Shown here: piece by piece, positions 1,335 through 19,889 of the stretch
How positions within the stretch are numbered: the stretch's first letter is position 1
How the letters are laid out: each line of letters opens with the position of its first letter
NCBI GenBank assembly: GCA_964355655.1
Contig: CAYHDT010000005.1
Location: 1 to 57,791 of the forward strand
DNA from: an uncultured Candidatus Saccharibacteria bacterium
GTDB taxonomy: Bacteria > Patescibacteriota > Minisyncoccia > Phycocordibacterales > SBAW01
DNA length: 57,791 nucleotides
Direction of reading: 5' to 3'
Made by a program: the position numbers and the translations under genes
The notes under the pieces: generated by a model
Databases searched by the model: none
What the model saw: the letters and a program-made list of their open reading frames with translations, nothing else
What the model was told of the DNA's origin: nothing

Positions 1335-1446
1335 GGCACTCTTCCTTTCGTTGCTCGAACTTCCGCCCAGGATACCGGAATGGGCATAATCGAGCAAAAC
1401 AGTATCCGTAAAAAATAGTACTCTATAAAAATTGATTTGTCAATAG

Positions 1447-1530
1447 TGCGCCGGGTTGGATTCGAACCAACGAAGTCGTGATGACAATGCGTTTACAGCG
1501 CATCCCGTTTGACCACTTCGGTACCGACGC
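1447..1530 (-). tRNA. tRNA-Tyr(GTA)
   Basis: GCGTCGG/CCGGCGC acceptor stem, CTGTAAA anticodon loop, long variable arm, GGTTCGAATCC T arm. Confidence 0.95.
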
Positions 1531-2128
1531 AGTGTTTCTGTCTGTACGATTCTATCAGATTAAGAACATCTCGCAACATTTTTTTGTCACTGTACCGTAA
1601 GTGTATCATTCCGTACTCCATCTTTCGGCCTTCGGCCCGAAAATCTTTTCTGACGTATGGCTTCGTAAATTGAGACATCGGGATTGAGAGCGTCTTGCTC
1701 CAAAATTTTGCAATGACCGGATAGTCTTGATTTGCGTGGCAGTATATGAAAGCTCTAAATTTTCGCTCGTTTAACTCATAACGATTCCTCAAAAATTTTA
1801 TGAATAGTTCAACCATTAATGGGTTGCTATTCGCGAAATCAATACCTTTTGCTTTTGCCGTCTTATACCCCTCTGCCCAGTAGAGCATTGCTCCGATTAT
1901 TTTTAGTTCTTTGCTATGTCGAGATCGGAGAGTAAATGAAGCAGGTTTTGCTTCGTACATGAGACGGTGTGATTCAGCAAAAGAACGCCGCGGTACAGTC
2001 GTTTTTCTCAGCACATAGGTAACCGCATCAATAGATACGCCGTAACTTTTTGCAACTACTCGCATCGGTTGTCCGGATTGATATAGGGTTCCCACTTTTT
2101 GCCATTCGGATTTTGGAATCGCGGACAT
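1493..2128 (-). CDS. HTH + LAGLIDADG-like (LYWAEG) protein, copy 1; 3' end overlaps tRNA-Tyr
   Basis: N-terminal HTH-like segment; IGAMLYWAEG-K ... FANSNPLM ... IYCH ... FWSKTL ... YG; last 38 nt lie in the tRNA. Confidence 0.7.
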   Translation of the reverse strand: MSAIPKSEWQKVGTLYQSGQPMRVVAKSYGVSIDAVTYVLRKTTVPRRSFAESHRLMYEAKPASFTLRSRHSKELKIIGAMLYWAEGYKTAKAKGIDFANSNPLMVELFIKFLRNRYELNERKFRAFIYCHANQDYPVIAKFWSKTLSIPMSQFTKPYVRKDFRAEGRKMEYGMIHLRYSDKKMLRDVLNLIESYRQKHCVGTEVVKRDAL

Positions 2129-2242
2129 ATTTTCATTTTCACGGCAGGCGAGCTAAAAGTCAAAGCAAGTTATATACATACACAAGTTACTTTGACCTAA
2201 GAAATTAATTTTTATCTAAAAATCAGATGGTATGATTAAGGC

Positions 2243-4153
2243 ATGAAGAAGGCCCTTCTGTATGCTCTTTTTGGCATAGTAGTTTTCTCTTTTGCTCCGG
2301 TTGGCACTGCCAACGCGGCGGGGGAGATTGTAGTCGGATCCACTACGCAGCCTAACGCCGTACCGGCCGCGCCAAAGACCGTTATCGCCCTTACGCGCTT
2401 TACCTTGCAAAACACAGGTACGAGCAGCGTTACGCTTACCGGACTTAACGTGCAGCAAGCGGGTACCGCGGCGGATTCTGTTATCGCCGGAGTACTGATA
2501 TGGGATGAAGATATCGCTGTAGTTGGTTCTAAATTAGGGACAAGCACTTTTGACTCCTCTCATGCGGCAACCATACTGCTTTCTTTTACCGTCTCCGCGG
2601 GCCAAACCCGTGCGCTCATACTTGGCGTTTCGATGGCGGCGGATATATCCGCCGAAGCCGGCAAAACTGTCTCACTTGTCCTGACAGGGCTGCAAACCTC
2701 TCCTTCCGCGCCAGTTGCGGGCCTGGTACCGTTTACCGGGGGTATCCAAGCGGTTATTCCCTCGCCGTTTATGCCCCCGCCGCAGTGTAAGATGTCGGCG
2801 ACGCCGTCGAGCCTTACTAAAGGCGGGAGTTTTACGCTTAAGTGGAGCAGTATCAACGCTACCTCGGCGAATATTCCGGGCCCGAGTCTGGGCGACGTGC
2901 CTGTGTCGGGTCAGGCAAATCTTATTCCCCTCAGTTCCACCCGCTATATAGGGACATTTATCGGCGCAGGAGGCAAAGCTACTTGTGAGACAATAATTAC
3001 CGTCTTCCTTACCGACGGGGCGAGTACCCCGATAGGGGATTCATCCGGAGATATTGTGTCTGACCCCGGCACCTTTGGCCCGCCCGCGCCGCTTGGACAA
3101 ACGCCGTCTCTTGGCGCTCCGCCGACTATACAGGCCGGGCCGCCGATTAAGCTCTCTAACAACGAAGGTTCGGGTTTAATTCCATGTACCGGCATCAACT
3201 GCCAAGCTTGCAGACTTGCCGACCTTGCTCAAAACATCATCAACTTTTTAATCGGGCTCTCTATCCCGCTGGCGGCGGCGATGTTCGCTTACGCGGGAGT
3301 CATTTACTTTACCTCCGGAGTCATAGATAAGATTGAAAAAGCAAAGAAAATCTTTACCTCCGTGCTTATCGGCTTTGCGCTGGTAGCGGGCGGGTGGCTC
3401 ATTGTACAGACCATACTCAGCACTATATTGAGCGACAGTTATAAAAATTGGAACGAAATCAAGTGTATACAAGCAAAGGATAATACTCCCGGCGGACGGC
3501 AACTAAACAAAAGTATAAACGACCTCCTCGGCTCGATAAGCGTACTTAATAACCTCAACACCAGCGGCCAGCCGCCGGTAACGCCAGCGTCTTATCTGTC
3601 GGGAGGCCAACTGACACCGCCGCCGGGCGGAGGATGCGATGAGGCAACCAACACATGTTGGGACAAAGACGGCAAGATGGTCGACCCGGTAAGAACTTCT
3701 GTAACTAATCCGGAAATGGAAGCGCAGATAGCCGAAGCCTGTTCCAAATATGGAATGAGCAGCAGTGAATGCGCTTATGCAAAAAGTATCGCGATGAATG
3801 AGTCCAGCGGCGGTAAAAATTGCACCACTAGCGCGACAGGAGCTGCCGGCTGCATGCAGGTGCTTGCAACGACCGCGTGTGGTCTGGACTCTTCTATATC
3901 ATCTAGTTGTGGTGCATGCACTGCCAGCCGCAACAGCACTAGTGCCGCATGTGCACCGGTCATTCAAACCATTGCAAGTAACTCCCAGCTTGGTACCAAT
4001 CTCGGGATACAATACTATCATCAGATGTACAGCCAATACGGAGGTTCCTGCCAATTGGCCGCCGCCGCTTACTATCAAGGTCCCGGAAACGTAAAAAAAT
4101 ACGGCGGTGTGCCGCCTAATGCAGTTAGTTATGTCAATACGGCGTGCAGATAG
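2243..4153 (+). CDS. secreted/membrane protein: Ig-like region + TrbC/VirB2-like pilin segment + C-terminal lytic transglycosylase (SLT)
   Basis: Signal peptide; LIPC..C..C followed by two TM helices; SLT motifs AMNESSG, AAGCMQV, AAYYQGPG. Confidence 0.75.
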   Translation: MKKALLYALFGIVVFSFAPVGTANAAGEIVVGSTTQPNAVPAAPKTVIALTRFTLQNTGTSSVTLTGLNVQQAGTAADSVIAGVLIWDEDIAVVGSKLGTSTFDSSHAATILLSFTVSAGQTRALILGVSMAADISAEAGKTVSLVLTGLQTSPSAPVAGLVPFTGGIQAVIPSPFMPPPQCKMSATPSSLTKGGSFTLKWSSINATSANIPGPSLGDVPVSGQANLIPLSSTRYIGTFIGAGGKATCETIITVFLTDGASTPIGDSSGDIVSDPGTFGPPAPLGQTPSLGAPPTIQAGPPIKLSNNEGSGLIPCTGINCQACRLADLAQNIINFLIGLSIPLAAAMFAYAGVIYFTSGVIDKIEKAKKIFTSVLIGFALVAGGWLIVQTILSTILSDSYKNWNEIKCIQAKDNTPGGRQLNKSINDLLGSISVLNNLNTSGQPPVTPASYLSGGQLTPPPGGGCDEATNTCWDKDGKMVDPVRTSVTNPEMEAQIAEACSKYGMSSSECAYAKSIAMNESSGGKNCTTSATGAAGCMQVLATTACGLDSSISSSCGACTASRNSTSAACAPVIQTIASNSQLGTNLGIQYYHQMYSQYGGSCQLAAAAYYQGPGNVKKYGGVPPNAVSYVNTACR

Positions 4154-5183: not shown

Positions 5184-5257
5184 TGGCGGGCGATGAAGGA
5201 ATCGAACCTTCAATAACGGTTTTGGAGACCGTTGTGATACCGTTTCACCAATCGCCC
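5184..5257 (-). tRNA. tRNA-Trp(CCA), CCA end encoded
   Basis: GGGCGAT/ATCGCCC acceptor stem, CTCCAAA loop, GGTTCGATTCC T arm. Confidence 0.95.
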
Positions 5258-5268
5258 GTACGCGCATC

Positions 5269-6111
5269 TTAGCGCGAAAGGAATTTTTTTGAAAGTCGCA
5301 GAGCCTCTTTTTTGCCGCCCACCCAGTGTATGTCTTTGTGGCGCTTAAACCACCGGTTTTGGCGTTTTGCATACTGCTCTTCTCCGCGGACAATCGCATC
5401 CGCCAACTGCTTTTTAGTTATCTTTTTATCCAGATAGTCGGCTAATAAGGCAAACTCAAATCCCAACTCCAAGAATCTTTTTTTAGACAGTGCGGCGCGG
5501 AGTTTTTTTGCTTCGGCTACCATACCGAGCTTTAGGCGCGCCGTGACGCCCGCGCGGATGTTTTTAGATTTTTTTAAGCCCAGCCACAGCACCCGGTAGG
5601 GGGGCTCGCGCACCAGGCTTGGCACGGTGCCGAGAGTTTTCGCTATCTCTATCGCGCGGATCATCCGTACCGGATTGCGCTTGTCTACGCGTTTGGCGCT
5701 GGCCGGGTCGATTTTTTGCAGTATCGCAAAAAGCTGCGCAGGAGACTTTTTAGCAAGCGCCGCGCGGAGTGTTTTATCCGGCGCGACTTTCGGCAGGCGC
5801 CATCCGCGCAAAAAAGCATCGGCATAAAGCCCGGCTCCGCCGACTACAATAGGTATTCTAGTATTTTGCAAAATACTGGAACAGATTTTCGCCGCATCTT
5901 TTTGGTACTGGCCGACGCTGTATTGGCGGCGCGGGTCGGCAACTCCCACCATGTGGCCTCTCTCCGCGCGCGAGATGACAGCCATGCCCCTATAGAGCTG
6001 CCGGCTGTCGGCCGAGATAATCTCCCCGTTCAGTTTTTTAGCAAGCCAAATGCCGAGCGAGCTCTTGCCCGAGGCGGTCGGGCCCACAATAGCTATAACT
6101 TTATGCTTCAT
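5269..6111 (-). CDS. miaA: tRNA dimethylallyltransferase
   Basis: GPTASGKS, IISADSRQLY, VGGAGLY, YAKRQ..WF. Confidence 0.95.
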   Translation of the reverse strand: MKHKVIAIVGPTASGKSSLGIWLAKKLNGEIISADSRQLYRGMAVISRAERGHMVGVADPRRQYSVGQYQKDAAKICSSILQNTRIPIVVGGAGLYADAFLRGWRLPKVAPDKTLRAALAKKSPAQLFAILQKIDPASAKRVDKRNPVRMIRAIEIAKTLGTVPSLVREPPYRVLWLGLKKSKNIRAGVTARLKLGMVAEAKKLRAALSKKRFLELGFEFALLADYLDKKITKKQLADAIVRGEEQYAKRQNRWFKRHKDIHWVGGKKEALRLSKKFLSR

Positions 6112-18448: not shown

Positions 18449-18476
18449 GCCCCGCACATGCGGGGCTTTTTCTTTT
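18449..18476 (+). terminator. intrinsic terminator
   Basis: GCCCCGC-ACAT-GCGGGGC followed by a T-tract. Confidence 0.8.
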
Positions 18477-18525
18477 AATGGGGATAGATCGTACCAAGGT
18501 ATTATATTTACGGTAGAATATAAGC

Positions 18526-19224
18526 ATGGTTCGACACAGTCAGAAAAATCGTGAAAAAGCGATAATATTGCGCGAACAAGGCCTTTCCTACCGAGAGATT
18601 TTAGAGCACGTGCCTGTAGCAAAATCAACTCTTTCTTTGTGGTTGCGTTCAGTCCATCTTTCTGTTCCTCAAAAACAGGCCTTAACACAAAAGAAACTTA
18701 ATGCCGCAAGACGCGGCGCCGAGACAAAAAGACGGCAGAGGCTTTTGTCGACCGAAAAACTAAAAACTGCCGCCCGAAAACAAATAGGTAGTCTCACAAA
18801 ACGAGAAAAGCTACTTATTGGCGCCGCACTTTACTGGGCGGAAGGTTCTAAACAACGACCAAGTACTTTAAGTACCAGTGTAATTTTCAACAACTCCGAC
18901 CCGCTAATGATAAAATTTTTCAAGGACTGGTTACTGGAAGTAGTAAAAGTAAATCCGCATGCTTTAAAGTTTGAAATCTATTTGCACGAAACGCACCACC
19001 ATCGTTTGAATGAAGTAAGGCGATACTGGGCAAAAGTTCTTTCTGAGCCAGTACAAAAACTAGAAACAGTGTATTTTAAAAAGAACGTGCTAAAGACTAG
19101 TAGGAAAAACACGGAAAACGGGTATTATGGGCTGGTACGTATACGCCTGCGCGCCAGCTCAGGTTTAAACAGAACTATTTCCGGTTGGGTCGAGGGAATA
19201 GTACAAAATTGCGGGGTCGTCTAA
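18526..19224 (+). CDS. HTH + LAGLIDADG-like (LYWAEG) protein, copy 2; 3' end overlaps tRNA-Gln
   Basis: LREQGLSYREI..VAKSTLSLW (HTH); IGAALYWAEGSK ... FNNSDPLM ... IYLH ... YWAKVL ... YYG. Confidence 0.72.
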   Translation: MVRHSQKNREKAIILREQGLSYREILEHVPVAKSTLSLWLRSVHLSVPQKQALTQKKLNAARRGAETKRRQRLLSTEKLKTAARKQIGSLTKREKLLIGAALYWAEGSKQRPSTLSTSVIFNNSDPLMIKFFKDWLLEVVKVNPHALKFEIYLHETHHHRLNEVRRYWAKVLSEPVQKLETVYFKKNVLKTSRKNTENGYYGLVRIRLRASSGLNRTISGWVEGIVQNCGVV

Positions 19225-19280
19225 CGGTAGGACTCGGGACTTTGAATCCCGCTACGAAGGTTCGAATCCTTCCCCCGCAG
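19210..19280 (+). tRNA. tRNA-Gln(TTG)
   Basis: TGCGGGG/CCCCGCA acceptor stem, CTTTGAA loop, GGTTCGAATCC T arm. Confidence 0.95.
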
Positions 19281-19289
19281 CAAAAACAA

Positions 19290-19889
19290 ATGGACTATGA
19301 CGACATCAATTCTAGACTGAGACGATTATATCTATCCCTTGGCCAAAGATTCGAGGCTAATATTTTTGAGCACGAACAATCCAAAGAAACTCGTGATGGA
19401 AACAAGGTTACTGTAACTATTAGTTTTGACGGAAAACATGATGTGGATGAAACACGCAACAGAATAAATACAATTATTAGTAATCTAGCTAATCTGAAAG
19501 ATCATTTAAAAACGAAATTAAAGCAGAAAGGAGGAGATCCGCAGGAGATTGAAAACGAGATTAATCAAAGCCTTCCGTTACAGCTTGTATTGGATTTAAA
19601 TAACCAAGAAAAGCATGGTTATCCTCTCAAAGAAAAGAGACGCTCTAAAAAGGATCCGAAGATAATCAATGTGTCTAAAGGCATATCATCCATACCAGGA
19701 ATGAATGCGCCGAGATTTATTAGAGATCCTATTACAGGTGCTGGCCATACAGACAATATGGCGGTCGTAATTACGGGGGAAGTGGTCGACGGACAAGGTA
19801 ATTTGCTATACAGTTTTAACGACTTAATCAATAGGTCTTCAGACGCCTGGGAAACAATTGTGACTAAATTTAATCTAAATCAGGAATAG
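19290..19889 (+). CDS. hypothetical low-GC protein
   Basis: ATG 9 nt after the tRNA; visibly AT-rich; DLNNQEKHG motif. Confidence 0.7.
   Translation: MDYDDINSRLRRLYLSLGQRFEANIFEHEQSKETRDGNKVTVTISFDGKHDVDETRNRINTIISNLANLKDHLKTKLKQKGGDPQEIENEINQSLPLQLVLDLNNQEKHGYPLKEKRRSKKDPKIINVSKGISSIPGMNAPRFIRDPITGAGHTDNMAVVITGEVVDGQGNLLYSFNDLINRSSDAWETIVTKFNLNQE

What the first reader, a model, noticed from the sequence alone, without database searches (positions are those of the whole stretch)
18526..19280. Second, divergent LYWAEG paralogue reading into tRNA-Gln: the arrangement recurs
Seen: it shares IGA-LYWAEG-K, F-NS-PLM, IY-H, W-K-L and YG motifs and an HTH with the 1493..2128 protein. It overlaps tRNA-Gln by 15 nt (stop in the D arm), is AT-richer than flanking core genes, and has TAGAAT 6 nt before its ATG. 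Two placements on two different tRNAs within 18 kb argue against chance. No split tRNA half lies upstream, so this is not a tRNA intron. Inference: a tRNA-tracking gene family and the best candidate here for an undescribed system.
Basis: partly seen in the sequence, partly recalled or inferred. Interest (0 to 1): 0.82.

Follow-up and report, generated by a model that had tools for sequence, protein, structure and literature searches.

The report
Gene family wired to tRNA genes
This gene belongs to a large, unnamed family of small DNA-binding proteins whose genes sit directly in front of tRNA genes or inside tRNA clusters. Each branch of the family goes with its own tRNA, in ultra-small bacteria, some actinomycetes and large viral contigs, and the proteins' function has never been studied.

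Summary
ORF A (18526..19224) reads 15 nt into tRNA-Gln(UUG). Its 30%-identical paralogue, ORF B (1493..2128, minus strand), reads 38 nt into tRNA-Tyr(GUA).

The arrangement is nearly universal in the family:
- 80/80 A-type relatives from Patescibacteria genomes are followed at once by tRNA-Gln.
- 77/77 informative B-type relatives are followed by tRNA-Tyr.
- A third clade sits before tRNA-Trp (12 loci) and one copy before tRNA-Gly.
- Tandem two-unit versions sit before tRNA-Gln in cultured actinomycetes (Actinomadura, Allonocardiopsis).
- 20/20 distant relatives on IMG/VR viral contigs lie next to or inside tRNA gene arrays.

The protein has an N-terminal helix-turn-helix and a roughly 140-aa domain with no Pfam, NCBIfam or PDB relative. 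That domain shows only sub-threshold LAGLIDADG similarity.

In Patescibacteria the genes are intact, as conserved as DnaX, and partly co-inherited with it. They have their own promoter with a clade-specific palindrome.

Best reading (about 0.4): an HTH-guided, homing-endonuclease-like protein that binds tRNA-gene DNA, now fixed in promoter-ORF-tRNA units. Main rival: a pure autoregulator or tRNA sensor.

I found no description of the family in the literature. It is testable in culturable Actinomadura.

The parts
18449..18475 (+). Terminator-like hairpin with a T-run, which closes the upstream dnaX-side genes and isolates the ORF A unit
   Evidence: 7 G-C pairs, then TTTTTCTTTT; sequence read
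18514..18519 (+). -10-like hexamer TAGAAT, 6 nt before the ATG. This spacing implies a leaderless or near-leaderless mRNA.
   Evidence: Sequence. The same -10 to ATG spacing (4-9 nt) is seen in 53/71 B-type and 37/71 A-type relatives.
18526..19224 (+). ORF A, 232 aa, the tRNA-Gln clade of the family. The last 4 codons and the stop are encoded by the 5' end of the tRNA.
18535..18648 (+). N-terminal three-helix HTH of ORF A (residues 4-41)
   Evidence: Pfam HTH_23, E = 0.0022. HTH_23 matches 77/150 members. The AF2 model has helices at 3-17, 22-28 and 33-42.
18787..19206 (+). C-terminal alpha/beta domain of ORF A (residues 88-227), carrying the invariant LYWAEG motif and the FxNSDP motif. It has no recognised relative.
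   Evidence: AF2 domain model, pLDDT 87.5, pTM 0.82. Best Foldseek PDB hit E = 0.028, TM below 0.4. L102, E106, G107, N123, W168 and G202 are invariant in 150 members.
19210..19281 (+). tRNA-Gln(UUG), the conserved downstream partner of the A clade
   Evidence: 80/80 relatives
1493..2128 (-). ORF B, 211 aa, the tRNA-Tyr clade of the family. Its last 38 nt lie inside tRNA-Tyr.
1446..1530 (-). tRNA-Tyr(GUA), the conserved downstream partner of the B clade
   Evidence: 72/80 relatives called by ARAGORN plus 5 that it missed
2159..2196 (-). Imperfect 18+18 nt palindrome just upstream of ORF B that includes the -35 TTGACT; a candidate operator
   Evidence: I2, 78% complementary. The same AGTCAA..TGTGTATA..TTGACT layout is visible in many B-type relatives.

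Best explanation
SHOWN. ORF A and ORF B belong to a very large, unnamed protein family. Each protein has an N-terminal HTH, a long linker helix and a roughly 140-aa alpha/beta domain carrying the invariant motif LYWAEG.

The genes are physically tied to tRNA genes. In Patescibacteria each clade sits immediately 5' of one tRNA isotype on the same strand (Gln, Tyr, Trp, Gly). In some actinomycetes a tandem two-unit version sits before tRNA-Gln. On large viral contigs relatives sit inside or beside tRNA arrays.

INFERRED (most likely mechanism).
1. The protein is a sequence-specific DNA-binding protein that acts as a dimer, or as a pseudo-dimer in the tandem forms.
2. It descends from, and may still act as, a free-standing homing endonuclease of LAGLIDADG-like type. 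Its targets would be tRNA genes or their 5' junction.
3. Cleavage of a copy-less allele followed by recombinational repair would place the gene next to the tRNA. This would explain why every clade ends up in the same slot.
4. In Patescibacteria the element has become fixed. It carries a strong promoter of its own and no terminator before the tRNA, so ORF and tRNA are probably made as one transcript and the tRNA is cut out by RNase P.
5. The HTH probably also binds the clade-specific palindrome at its own promoter and so autoregulates the unit.
For: **tRNA linkage**
- 80/80 A-type loci have tRNA-Gln downstream.
- 72/80 B-type loci have tRNA-Tyr called by ARAGORN. Five more have a tRNA-Tyr that ARAGORN cannot see and three are cut by the contig end.
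- 12 genes are followed by tRNA-Trp and one by tRNA-Gly.
- In actinomycetes the gene precedes tRNA-Gln in L170, L174 and L175.
- 20/20 viral loci contain tRNAs, and 17/20 have one within 100 nt of an ORF end.

**Homing-endonuclease-like character**
- LAGLIDADG_3 is the only non-HTH Pfam family that recurs: 17/150 members, best E = 0.0021.
- hhalign places LYWAEGxK on LYVAEGDK and FxNSDPxM..F..WL on IWNKNKALLEIVSRWL in the second LAGLIDADG domain of I-DmoI, pairwise E = 0.0016. Only 2/200 shuffles reach that score.
- The glutamate is invariant in 150/150 members and in both units of the tandem proteins.
- Both single-unit and fused two-unit forms exist, as in LAGLIDADG enzymes.
- Genuine small nuclease genes occupy the same slot elsewhere. 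GIY-YIG genes precede tRNA-Lys and tRNA-His, and a PDDEXK_5 gene precedes tRNA-Tyr.
- Occurrence is patchy for the Trp clade, 12/33 tRNA-Trp genes.
- The same tRNA-Gln slot is used in distant phyla with unrelated neighbours.
- The window copy has lower GC than its flanks.
- Phage T4 SegB is a precedent for a free-standing homing endonuclease inside a tRNA cluster (PMC2330249, found).

**Transcription unit and autoregulation**
- Consensus promoters lie directly upstream, and the -10 sits 4-9 nt from the ATG in 53/71 B-type loci.
- A GAAC..GTTC inverted repeat brackets the -10 in 37/71 A-type loci, and a palindrome lies upstream of window ORF B.
- Promoter-like sites just before the tRNA are uncommon: 8/80 A-type and 22/70 B-type loci.
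Against: - The LAGLIDADG fold is not confirmed. Two confident AF2 models find no LAGLIDADG structure in the PDB (best E = 0.028, TM below 0.4). A profile search of PDB sequences finds nothing and I-CreI does not align.
- In Patescibacteria the genes do not look like decaying selfish elements. 155/160 loci carry an intact full-length ORF, and two of the other five are merely cut by a contig end.
- The A-type proteins are as conserved as DnaX (48% against 44.5% mean identity). Their pairwise identities co-vary with those of DnaX (Spearman 0.39, 0/300 permutations reach it).
- dnaX is the upstream neighbour in 45/80 A loci, and a ClpB-like gene is the neighbour in 29/80 B loci.
- No cleavage, DNA binding or transcript has been measured.
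- No pair of near-identical genomes with and without the gene was available to define insertion borders.
- There is no hit in cultured phages or in plasmids.
Confidence: 0.4

Rival explanations
1. The protein is a pure transcription factor. It is a dimeric HTH autoregulator of the promoter-ORF-tRNA unit, and its C-terminal domain is a dimerisation or effector domain. That domain might sense the cognate tRNA or its charging state, which would make it a protein counterpart of a T-box. There is no nuclease activity and no mobility.
For: - The HTH scores above Pfam threshold in relatives.
- Clade-specific palindromes overlap the promoter.
- Tandem fused forms are consistent with a dimer.
- The genes are under strong purifying selection, are intact, and are co-inherited with dnaX.
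- Cognate aminoacyl-tRNA synthetase-like genes are neighbours in some loci: a tRNA-synt_1b gene follows tRNA-Trp in L167-L169, and a TyrRS-like gene lies upstream of B-type genes in about 6-8 loci.
- The fold search gives no nuclease match.
Against: - This does not explain why paralogues land in exactly the same slot before different tRNAs.
- It does not explain why the family sits in viral tRNA arrays next to many isotypes and sometimes on the opposite strand (L171/L172).
- It does not explain why nuclease genes occupy equivalent slots.
- The invariant E, N and K and the near-invariant S, D, Y and R residues look more like an active site than a dimer interface.
Confidence: 0.3
2. The protein binds RNA. 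It acts on the pre-tRNA made in cis as a processing helper, chaperone or maturase-like factor, and the gene stays next to its substrate because the two are co-transcribed.
For: - Co-orientation and immediate adjacency without a terminator hold in more than 160 loci.
- A conserved, very basic hairpin loop (YFKKNxxxTxRKN, with near-invariant R193) is present.
- LAGLIDADG proteins can evolve into RNA maturases (established knowledge).
- Some downstream tRNA-Tyr genes carry a group I intron.
Against: - The gene is present whether or not the tRNA has an intron.
- Convergent or antisense arrangements exist: L171/L172 and L185, L189, L192, L195.
- The HTH is of a DNA-binding type.
- No RNA-binding family matches.
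Confidence: 0.15
3. The protein is a small transposase or recombinase-like insertion element that targets the 5' flank of tRNA genes. Its HTH resembles those of transposases and resolvases.
For: The HTH matches are to HTH_23, HTH_7, HTH_SB, HTH_Tnp_1 and TnsD-type models. The gene is placed precisely relative to tRNA genes.
Against: - No DDE, serine- or tyrosine-recombinase domain or fold was found.
- No convincing terminal inverted repeats or target-site duplications flank the units in the window.
- Only one copy of each clade is present in the 57.8-kb window.
- The genes lie in conserved synteny.
Confidence: 0.05

Closest known systems
Free-standing homing endonucleases in phage tRNA gene clusters (T4 SegB, GIY-YIG family; PMC2330249)
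   Same: Both are small genes embedded between or beside tRNA genes. The same theme appears here in 20/20 viral loci and in the Patescibacteria loci. Real GIY-YIG and PD-(D/E)XK genes occupy equivalent slots in the fetched loci.
   Different: The protein family is different, with no GIY-YIG, HNH or PD-(D/E)XK match. It carries an N-terminal HTH. Each clade is strictly paired with one isotype and takes a fixed position 0-20 nt 5' of the tRNA in cellular genomes. It is strongly conserved and partly vertically inherited. Nuclease activity has not been shown.
LAGLIDADG homing endonucleases (for example I-DmoI, PDB 1b24; Pfam LAGLIDADG_3)
   Same: The motif helix ends in A-E-G and is followed by a strand-helix segment that aligns with the second domain of I-DmoI. 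The acidic residue is invariant. Single-unit and tandem two-unit forms both exist. Sub-threshold LAGLIDADG_3 hits occur in 17/150 members.
   Different: No member reaches the Pfam threshold. The AF2 models do not retrieve any LAGLIDADG structure. Helices are inserted between the third and fourth strands. The gene is not inside an intron or an intein.
WhiA (a bacterial regulator built from degenerate LAGLIDADG domains plus an HTH; from established knowledge)
   Same: Both combine a LAGLIDADG-like scaffold with an HTH in a cellular, conserved DNA-binding protein. WhiA is a precedent for domestication of this scaffold.
   Different: The domain order is reversed, with the HTH first. There is one unit rather than two. 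The acidic residue is retained. There is no Pfam WhiA match. WhiA is not linked to tRNA genes.
I-TevI acting as autorepressor of its own promoter (from established knowledge)
   Same: It is a homing endonuclease that also binds an operator at its own promoter. This matches the palindromes at the promoters found here.
   Different: The fold is different (GIY-YIG). I-TevI is intron-encoded and has no tRNA link.

Membership tests
LAGLIDADG homing endonuclease | Profile membership (Pfam LAGLIDADG_1, _2, _3 or WhiA at the gathering score) | tested here: not met
   The window proteins give no hit. 17/150 members match LAGLIDADG_3, but only below threshold; the best E is 0.0021.
LAGLIDADG homing endonuclease | Motif helix ending in a conserved acidic residue followed by Gly | tested here: inconclusive
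   LYWAEG has E106 and G107 invariant in 150/150 members. It aligns with LYVAEG of I-DmoI, pairwise E = 0.0016, and 2/200 shuffles reach that score. I-CreI does not align.
LAGLIDADG homing endonuclease | Alpha-beta-beta-alpha-beta-beta-alpha core fold | tested here: not met
   The AF2 models (pLDDT 84.8 and 87.5) have the order alpha-beta-alpha-beta-alpha-beta-beta-alpha. The region where the first strand should be has low confidence. No LAGLIDADG structure appears in the listed Foldseek PDB matches (the best 50 by E-value); the best hit has E = 0.028 and TM below 0.4.
LAGLIDADG homing endonuclease | Site-specific DNA cleavage | not testable with these tools
   This needs a purified protein and a cleavage assay.
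Free-standing homing endonuclease gene (mobile) | Presence/absence polymorphism at the same site among related genomes, and phylogeny discordant with the host | tested here: inconclusive
   The Trp clade is patchy, 12/33 tRNA-Trp genes. The same Gln slot is used in Patescibacteria and in actinomycetes. However, the A clade co-varies with DnaX and dnaX synteny holds in 45/80 loci.
HTH transcription regulator (autoregulator) | Helix-turn-helix DNA-binding domain | tested here: met
   HTH_23 and HTH_7 are sub-threshold in the window proteins. HTH_23, HTH_3, HTH_7 and HTH_38 score above their gathering scores in viral relatives. PF13384 is precomputed for many D-type relatives. The AF2 model shows a three-helix bundle.
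HTH transcription regulator (autoregulator) | Palindromic operator overlapping its own promoter | tested here: inconclusive
   The sequence pattern is present. A GAAC..GTTC pair brackets the -10 in 37/71 A-type loci, and perfect inverted repeats of at least 8 nt occur in 20/71 against 14/355 shuffles. A B-type palindrome is present. Binding has not been tested.
tRNA intron or split-tRNA-encoded gene | ORF lies between two halves of one tRNA | tested here: not met
   A complete tRNA lies downstream and no tRNA fragment lies upstream. The group I introns seen in some tRNA-Tyr genes carry no ORF of this family.
Integrase-type island at a tRNA | Tyrosine or serine recombinase gene and insertion at the tRNA 3' end | tested here: not met
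   The family has no recombinase domain and the gene lies 5' of the tRNA. Separate large serine recombinase genes do lie 3' of some of these tRNAs, but they are a different feature.

The most novel reading that the evidence does not exclude
The C-terminal domain is a new fold that recognises the tRNA encoded next to it, either as RNA or as its gene. The protein would then be a tRNA-specific switch. It could sense the level, charging or processing of one tRNA and feed this back on transcription of that tRNA unit. Alternatively it could use the tRNA as a specificity cofactor for DNA binding or cleavage. Either would be a protein-based counterpart of T-box control, or a tRNA-dependent nuclease, with one clade per isotype.
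Probability: 0.12. Interest if true: 0.9.

Novelty: new variant of a known kind. Interest (0 to 1): 0.76.

Why it matters
The family is very large. A profile search finds 4348 clusters (at 50% identity) with E at or below 1e-10. No domain model covers its C-terminal domain, and I found no name and no paper for it.

Its placement rule is one of the strictest seen for a bacterial protein gene: one clade, one tRNA, zero to a few bases apart.

If it is a nuclease, it would be a new homing-endonuclease lineage that uses tRNA genes as targets. It could help explain how tRNA clusters in phages and ultra-small bacteria are shaped and exchanged, and it could offer new long-site DNA recognition modules.

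If it is a regulator or a tRNA sensor, it would be a new way for cells with very few regulators to control individual tRNAs.

Members exist in cultured Actinomadura and Allonocardiopsis, so ordinary genetics and biochemistry can settle the question.

Tried and rejected
1. **Clear LAGLIDADG membership.** Pfam, a PDB sequence profile, Foldseek on two models and I-CreI all fail. Only weak I-DmoI and LAGLIDADG_3 signals remain. I kept this as a lead, not a finding.
2. **Fold search against BFVD.** Only HTH matches came back.
3. **'B-type relatives without a tRNA'.** These are explained away. Three are cut by the contig end. Three have a tRNA-Tyr split by a group I intron. Two have an atypical tRNA-Tyr that ARAGORN missed.
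4. **'Three A-type loci with a gap of about 500-600 nt to the tRNA'.** By the end of the profile match, every A-type gene has tRNA-Gln within 150 nt. The gaps are therefore artefacts of measuring from the first in-frame stop. L020 has an in-frame stop; L012 and L042 lack the N-terminal part of the profile and probably account for the other two.
5. **The promoter half-site (..GTTC) mimics the T-arm of the gene's own tRNA.** The shared GGTTCGA is striking, but co-variation with the tRNA's own T-stem is marginal: 2.08 against 1.89 of 5 matches, reached by 58/2000 permutations. Not used.
6. **An internal tRNA promoter at the ORF 3' end.** It is not general: 8/80 A-type and 22/70 B-type loci, against 3.5-6% in control windows.
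7. **Target-site duplications or terminal repeats around the window units.** Only short AT-rich matches were found.
8. **Cultured phages and plasmids.** No tblastn hits.
9. **Literature.** Nothing on this family. The paper on rRNA insertions in CPR bacteria (Candidate Phyla Radiation, i.e. Patescibacteria) does not mention tRNA.
Full report
**1. The observation.**
- ORF A occupies 18526..19224 (+) and encodes 232 aa. ARAGORN places tRNA-Gln(ttg) at 19210..19281 on the same strand, and Rfam agrees. The ORF therefore runs 15 nt into the tRNA and stops at a TAA in the D arm.
- TAGAAT lies 6 nt before the ATG. A strong terminator-like hairpin at 18449..18475 closes the preceding genes.
- The second gene, ORF B at 1493..2128 (-), 211 aa, runs 38 nt into tRNA-Tyr(gta) at 1446..1530. 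It stops at the UAA formed by U35-A36-A37 of the anticodon loop.
- ORF A is 41-45% GC against 51-58% upstream. The low-GC block continues through the tRNA and the next ORF.

**2. The arrangement is a rule of the family, not a coincidence.**
- *A clade.* ORF A has 1707 relatives in the 90%-clustered protein collection. All are unnamed and come from Patescibacteria. A scan of one genome per species found at least 585 encoding loci. In all 80 that were fetched, tRNA-Gln(ttg) follows on the same strand. The ORF's stop overlaps the tRNA by 15 nt in 35 loci and lies 0-19 nt before it in 33. The rest read further into the tRNA. The conserved C-terminal 'NCGVV' of the proteins is simply the translated 5' end of the tRNA.
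- *B clade.* ORF B has its own clade. Of 80 metagenomic loci, 72 have tRNA-Tyr(gta) called directly downstream. Of the other eight, three are cut by the contig end. Three have a tRNA-Tyr interrupted in the anticodon loop by a group I intron (Rfam RF00028, 52.5 bits in L147). Two have an atypical tRNA-Tyr that ARAGORN missed.
- *Other clades.* The fetched loci contained further paralogues. A third clade precedes tRNA-Trp(cca) in L148, L156 and L160, and one copy reads into tRNA-Gly(gcc) in L069. The Trp clade has 241 relatives, including some named Moranbacteria, Shapirobacteria and Portnoybacteria. All 9 places looked up for four of its proteins have tRNA-Trp abutting the ORF.
- *Overall count.* Taking every family gene in hand, the first downstream tRNA is Gln 83 times, Tyr 73, Trp 12 and Gly once. 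No gene with enough downstream sequence lacks a tRNA, once the cases above are explained.

**3. The family reaches far beyond this organism.**
- A profile search of 1.84 billion representative proteins finds 10473 clusters at E at or below 1e-3, 4348 at or below 1e-10 and 776 at or below 1e-30.
- Among the best hits are proteins of 400-576 aa that are tandem fusions of two complete HTH-plus-domain units. They come from cultured actinomycetes: Actinomadura atramentaria (WP_019629257.1), A. parmotrematis, A. flavalba, Allonocardiopsis opalescens and Actinocorallia lasiicapitis.
- In three of these genomes the gene lies between a divergent desaturase/TetR pair and tRNA-Gln(ttg), 40-80 nt before the tRNA. 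glmU and prs follow.
- One metagenomic relative has the tRNA-Gln on the opposite strand, abutting the end of the domain.
- In IMG/VR viral contigs (11-498 kb), 20 distant relatives with the same build were found (23-34% identity; domain-profile E from 1e-16 to 1e-33). All 20 loci hold tRNA genes, up to 23 in 6 kb. 17 have a tRNA within 100 nt of an ORF end. Many isotypes are involved, sometimes on the opposite strand.
- Cultured phages and plasmids gave no hit.

**4. What the protein is.**
- The N-terminus is a three-helix HTH of the homeodomain/resolvase/transposase kind. It is sub-threshold in the window proteins, recurs in 77/150 members and scores above threshold in viral relatives.
- A long helix links it to a domain of about 140 aa. 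AlphaFold models are confident (pLDDT 84.8 for the full protein; 87.5 and pTM 0.82 for the domain). Foldseek finds no significant match in the PDB (best E = 0.028, TM below 0.4) and only HTH matches in BFVD. Sequence and profile searches of the PDB, of NCBIfam and of PHROGs give nothing for this domain.
- The invariant positions across 150 members are L102, E106, G107, N123, W168 and G202. Near-invariant positions are Y103, W104, K109, S124, D125, Y152, Y183 and R193.
- The motif xxLYWAEGxK, followed by a strand and a helix (FxNSDPxMxxxFxxWL), resembles a LAGLIDADG motif with its catalytic acid. I tested this lead. LAGLIDADG_3 is the only non-HTH Pfam family that recurs, in 17/150 members, all below threshold. 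hhalign aligns the family profile with the second LAGLIDADG domain of I-DmoI in the expected register (pairwise E = 0.0016), and only 2 of 200 shuffles reach that score. However, I-CreI does not align and the fold search does not support the assignment.
- The kinship is therefore suggestive only. The coexistence of single-unit and tandem two-unit proteins does mirror LAGLIDADG enzymes, and it argues that the working unit is a dimer.

**5. Gene context and expression signals.**
- *Promoters.* A-type genes are preceded by consensus-like sigma-70 promoters. In about half of them an inverted repeat (GAACCACGG ... CCGTGGTTC) brackets the -10 and ends 0-4 nt before the ATG. B-type genes have AGTCAA..TGTGTATA..TTGACT(-35), then 17-18 nt, then TATAAT, then 4-9 nt and the ATG. 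This indicates leaderless mRNAs. The window copies fit this pattern: TAGAAT plus 6 nt for ORF A, and an 18+18 nt palindrome at 2159..2196 for ORF B.
- *Co-transcription.* There is no terminator between ORF and tRNA. Promoter-like sites just before the tRNA are infrequent: 8/80 and 22/70 loci, against 3.5-6% in control windows inside the ORF. Co-transcription of ORF and tRNA is the simplest inference, but it has not been shown.
- *Conservation.* In Patescibacteria the genes look like established host genes. dnaX is the upstream neighbour in 45/80 A loci and a ClpB-like gene in 29/80 B loci. A-type and DnaX identities co-vary across 42 loci (Spearman 0.39, no permutation of 300 reaches it). The family is as conserved as DnaX, 48% against 44.5% mean identity. 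155 of 160 loci carry an intact full-length ORF, and two of the other five are cut by a contig end.
- *Signs of gain or loss.* The Trp clade is patchy, present at 12 of 33 tRNA-Trp genes. The window's own tRNA-Trp is preceded by miaA instead. In other loci the same slot is taken by genuine small nuclease genes: GIY-YIG before tRNA-Lys and tRNA-His, and PDDEXK_5 before tRNA-Tyr.

**6. Interpretation.**
- What is shown: this is a vast, undescribed HTH-plus-novel-domain family whose genes are tied to tRNA genes, with clade-isotype specificity in cellular genomes.
- The mechanism is inferred. I rank first (about 0.4) an HTH-guided protein that binds tRNA-gene DNA and has a homing-endonuclease origin and possibly activity. 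In Patescibacteria it would be fixed in promoter-ORF-tRNA units that it may autoregulate.
- This reading accounts for five things: the identical slot used by different clades, the occurrence in viral tRNA arrays (compare T4 SegB, PMC2330249), the same tRNA-Gln slot in unrelated phyla, nuclease genes in equivalent slots, and the LAGLIDADG-like motif.
- The main rival (about 0.3) is a pure autoregulator, possibly tRNA-sensing. It is favoured by the conservation, the vertical signal, the promoter palindromes and the lack of a nuclease fold match.
- An RNA-binding role on the cis pre-tRNA (about 0.15) and a transposase-like element (about 0.05) are less well supported.

**7. Novelty and verdict.**
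- I found no family model that covers the C-terminal domain, no name beyond 'hypothetical' or 'HTH domain-containing', and no paper.
- The closest known kinds are free-standing homing endonucleases in phage tRNA clusters and LAGLIDADG/HTH proteins such as WhiA. Tested membership of either fails or is inconclusive.
- I file the family as a new variant of a known kind. There is a real chance, given in the novel case, that it is something more unusual.
The actinomycete members make it experimentally tractable.

Noticed in passing
L147 1152..1380 (also L121 from about 1193 and L150 from about 760): A group I intron (Rfam RF00028, 52.5 bits, E = 1.9e-12) interrupts the anticodon loop of the tRNA-Tyr that follows a B-type gene. 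ARAGORN therefore reports no tRNA there. L121 and L150 show the same tRNA 5' half followed by an insert.
   Followed up: partly
L073 3812..4072; L080 573..827 (-); L163 1530..1925: Small genes of genuine nuclease superfamilies abut tRNA 5' ends in Patescibacteria loci. A GIY-YIG gene overlaps tRNA-Lys(ctt) by 2 nt. Another GIY-YIG gene lies 9 nt before tRNA-His(gtg). A PDDEXK_5 gene lies 15 nt before tRNA-Tyr(gta), in the slot that the B clade occupies elsewhere.
   Followed up: partly
window 5272..6111 (-) and tRNA-Trp 5184..5257 (-): miaA (Pfam IPPT, E = 2e-43) ends 11 nt before tRNA-Trp(cca) on the same strand. A tRNA-modification gene is thus paired with a tRNA it is expected to modify. 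This tRNA-Trp has no family gene in front of it.
   Followed up: partly
window 19290..19886 (+): The ORF that starts 9 nt after tRNA-Gln encodes 199 aa, has the lowest GC of the region (35-40%) and has no Pfam match. It may belong to the same unit or be a separate acquisition.
   Followed up: partly
14 loci, for example L038 3679..5178 (-): A gene of about 480 aa lies on the opposite strand just downstream of tRNA-Gln or tRNA-Tyr in 8 A-type and 6 B-type loci. From its sequence it looks like a large serine recombinase, but I did not run a domain search. If so, these are probably integrated elements using the tRNA 3' end.
   Followed up: no
L167..L169 (gene after tRNA-Trp); cluster 9 in B loci, for example L122 3..1241: Class I aminoacyl-tRNA synthetase genes are neighbours of the units. 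A tRNA-synt_1b gene follows D-type plus tRNA-Trp. A gene of about 410 aa that I read by eye as TyrRS-like (no domain search run) precedes B-type genes in about 6-8 loci.
   Followed up: no
L171 1497..3227 with tRNA-Gln(ttg) at 3143..3219 (-); same in L172: A tandem two-unit family member has its tRNA-Gln on the opposite strand. The tRNA abuts the end of the second domain, and the called ORF simply reads through it. This is one clear exception to co-orientation.
   Followed up: partly
L148, L156, L160, L163: These loci show the order tRNA-Thr(tgt), [B-type or PDDEXK_5 gene], tRNA-Tyr, tRNA-Thr(ggt), [D-type gene], tRNA-Trp. This is the widespread Thr-Tyr-(Gly)-Thr and Trp tRNA neighbourhood with protein genes inserted between the tRNAs.
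   Followed up: partly
L150 1744..1859: An Rfam LOOT RNA match (RF03000, 49.8 bits, gathering score 46.4) lies about 1 kb downstream of a B-type gene.
   Followed up: no
A-type and D-type upstream regions, for example L006, L016, L167: The 5' region of many A- and D-type genes ends in (C)GTGGTTCGA directly before the ATG. This is the same heptamer as the T-loop box GGTTCGA of tRNA genes. Co-variation with the gene's own tRNA T-stem is only marginal. Unexplained.
   Followed up: partly
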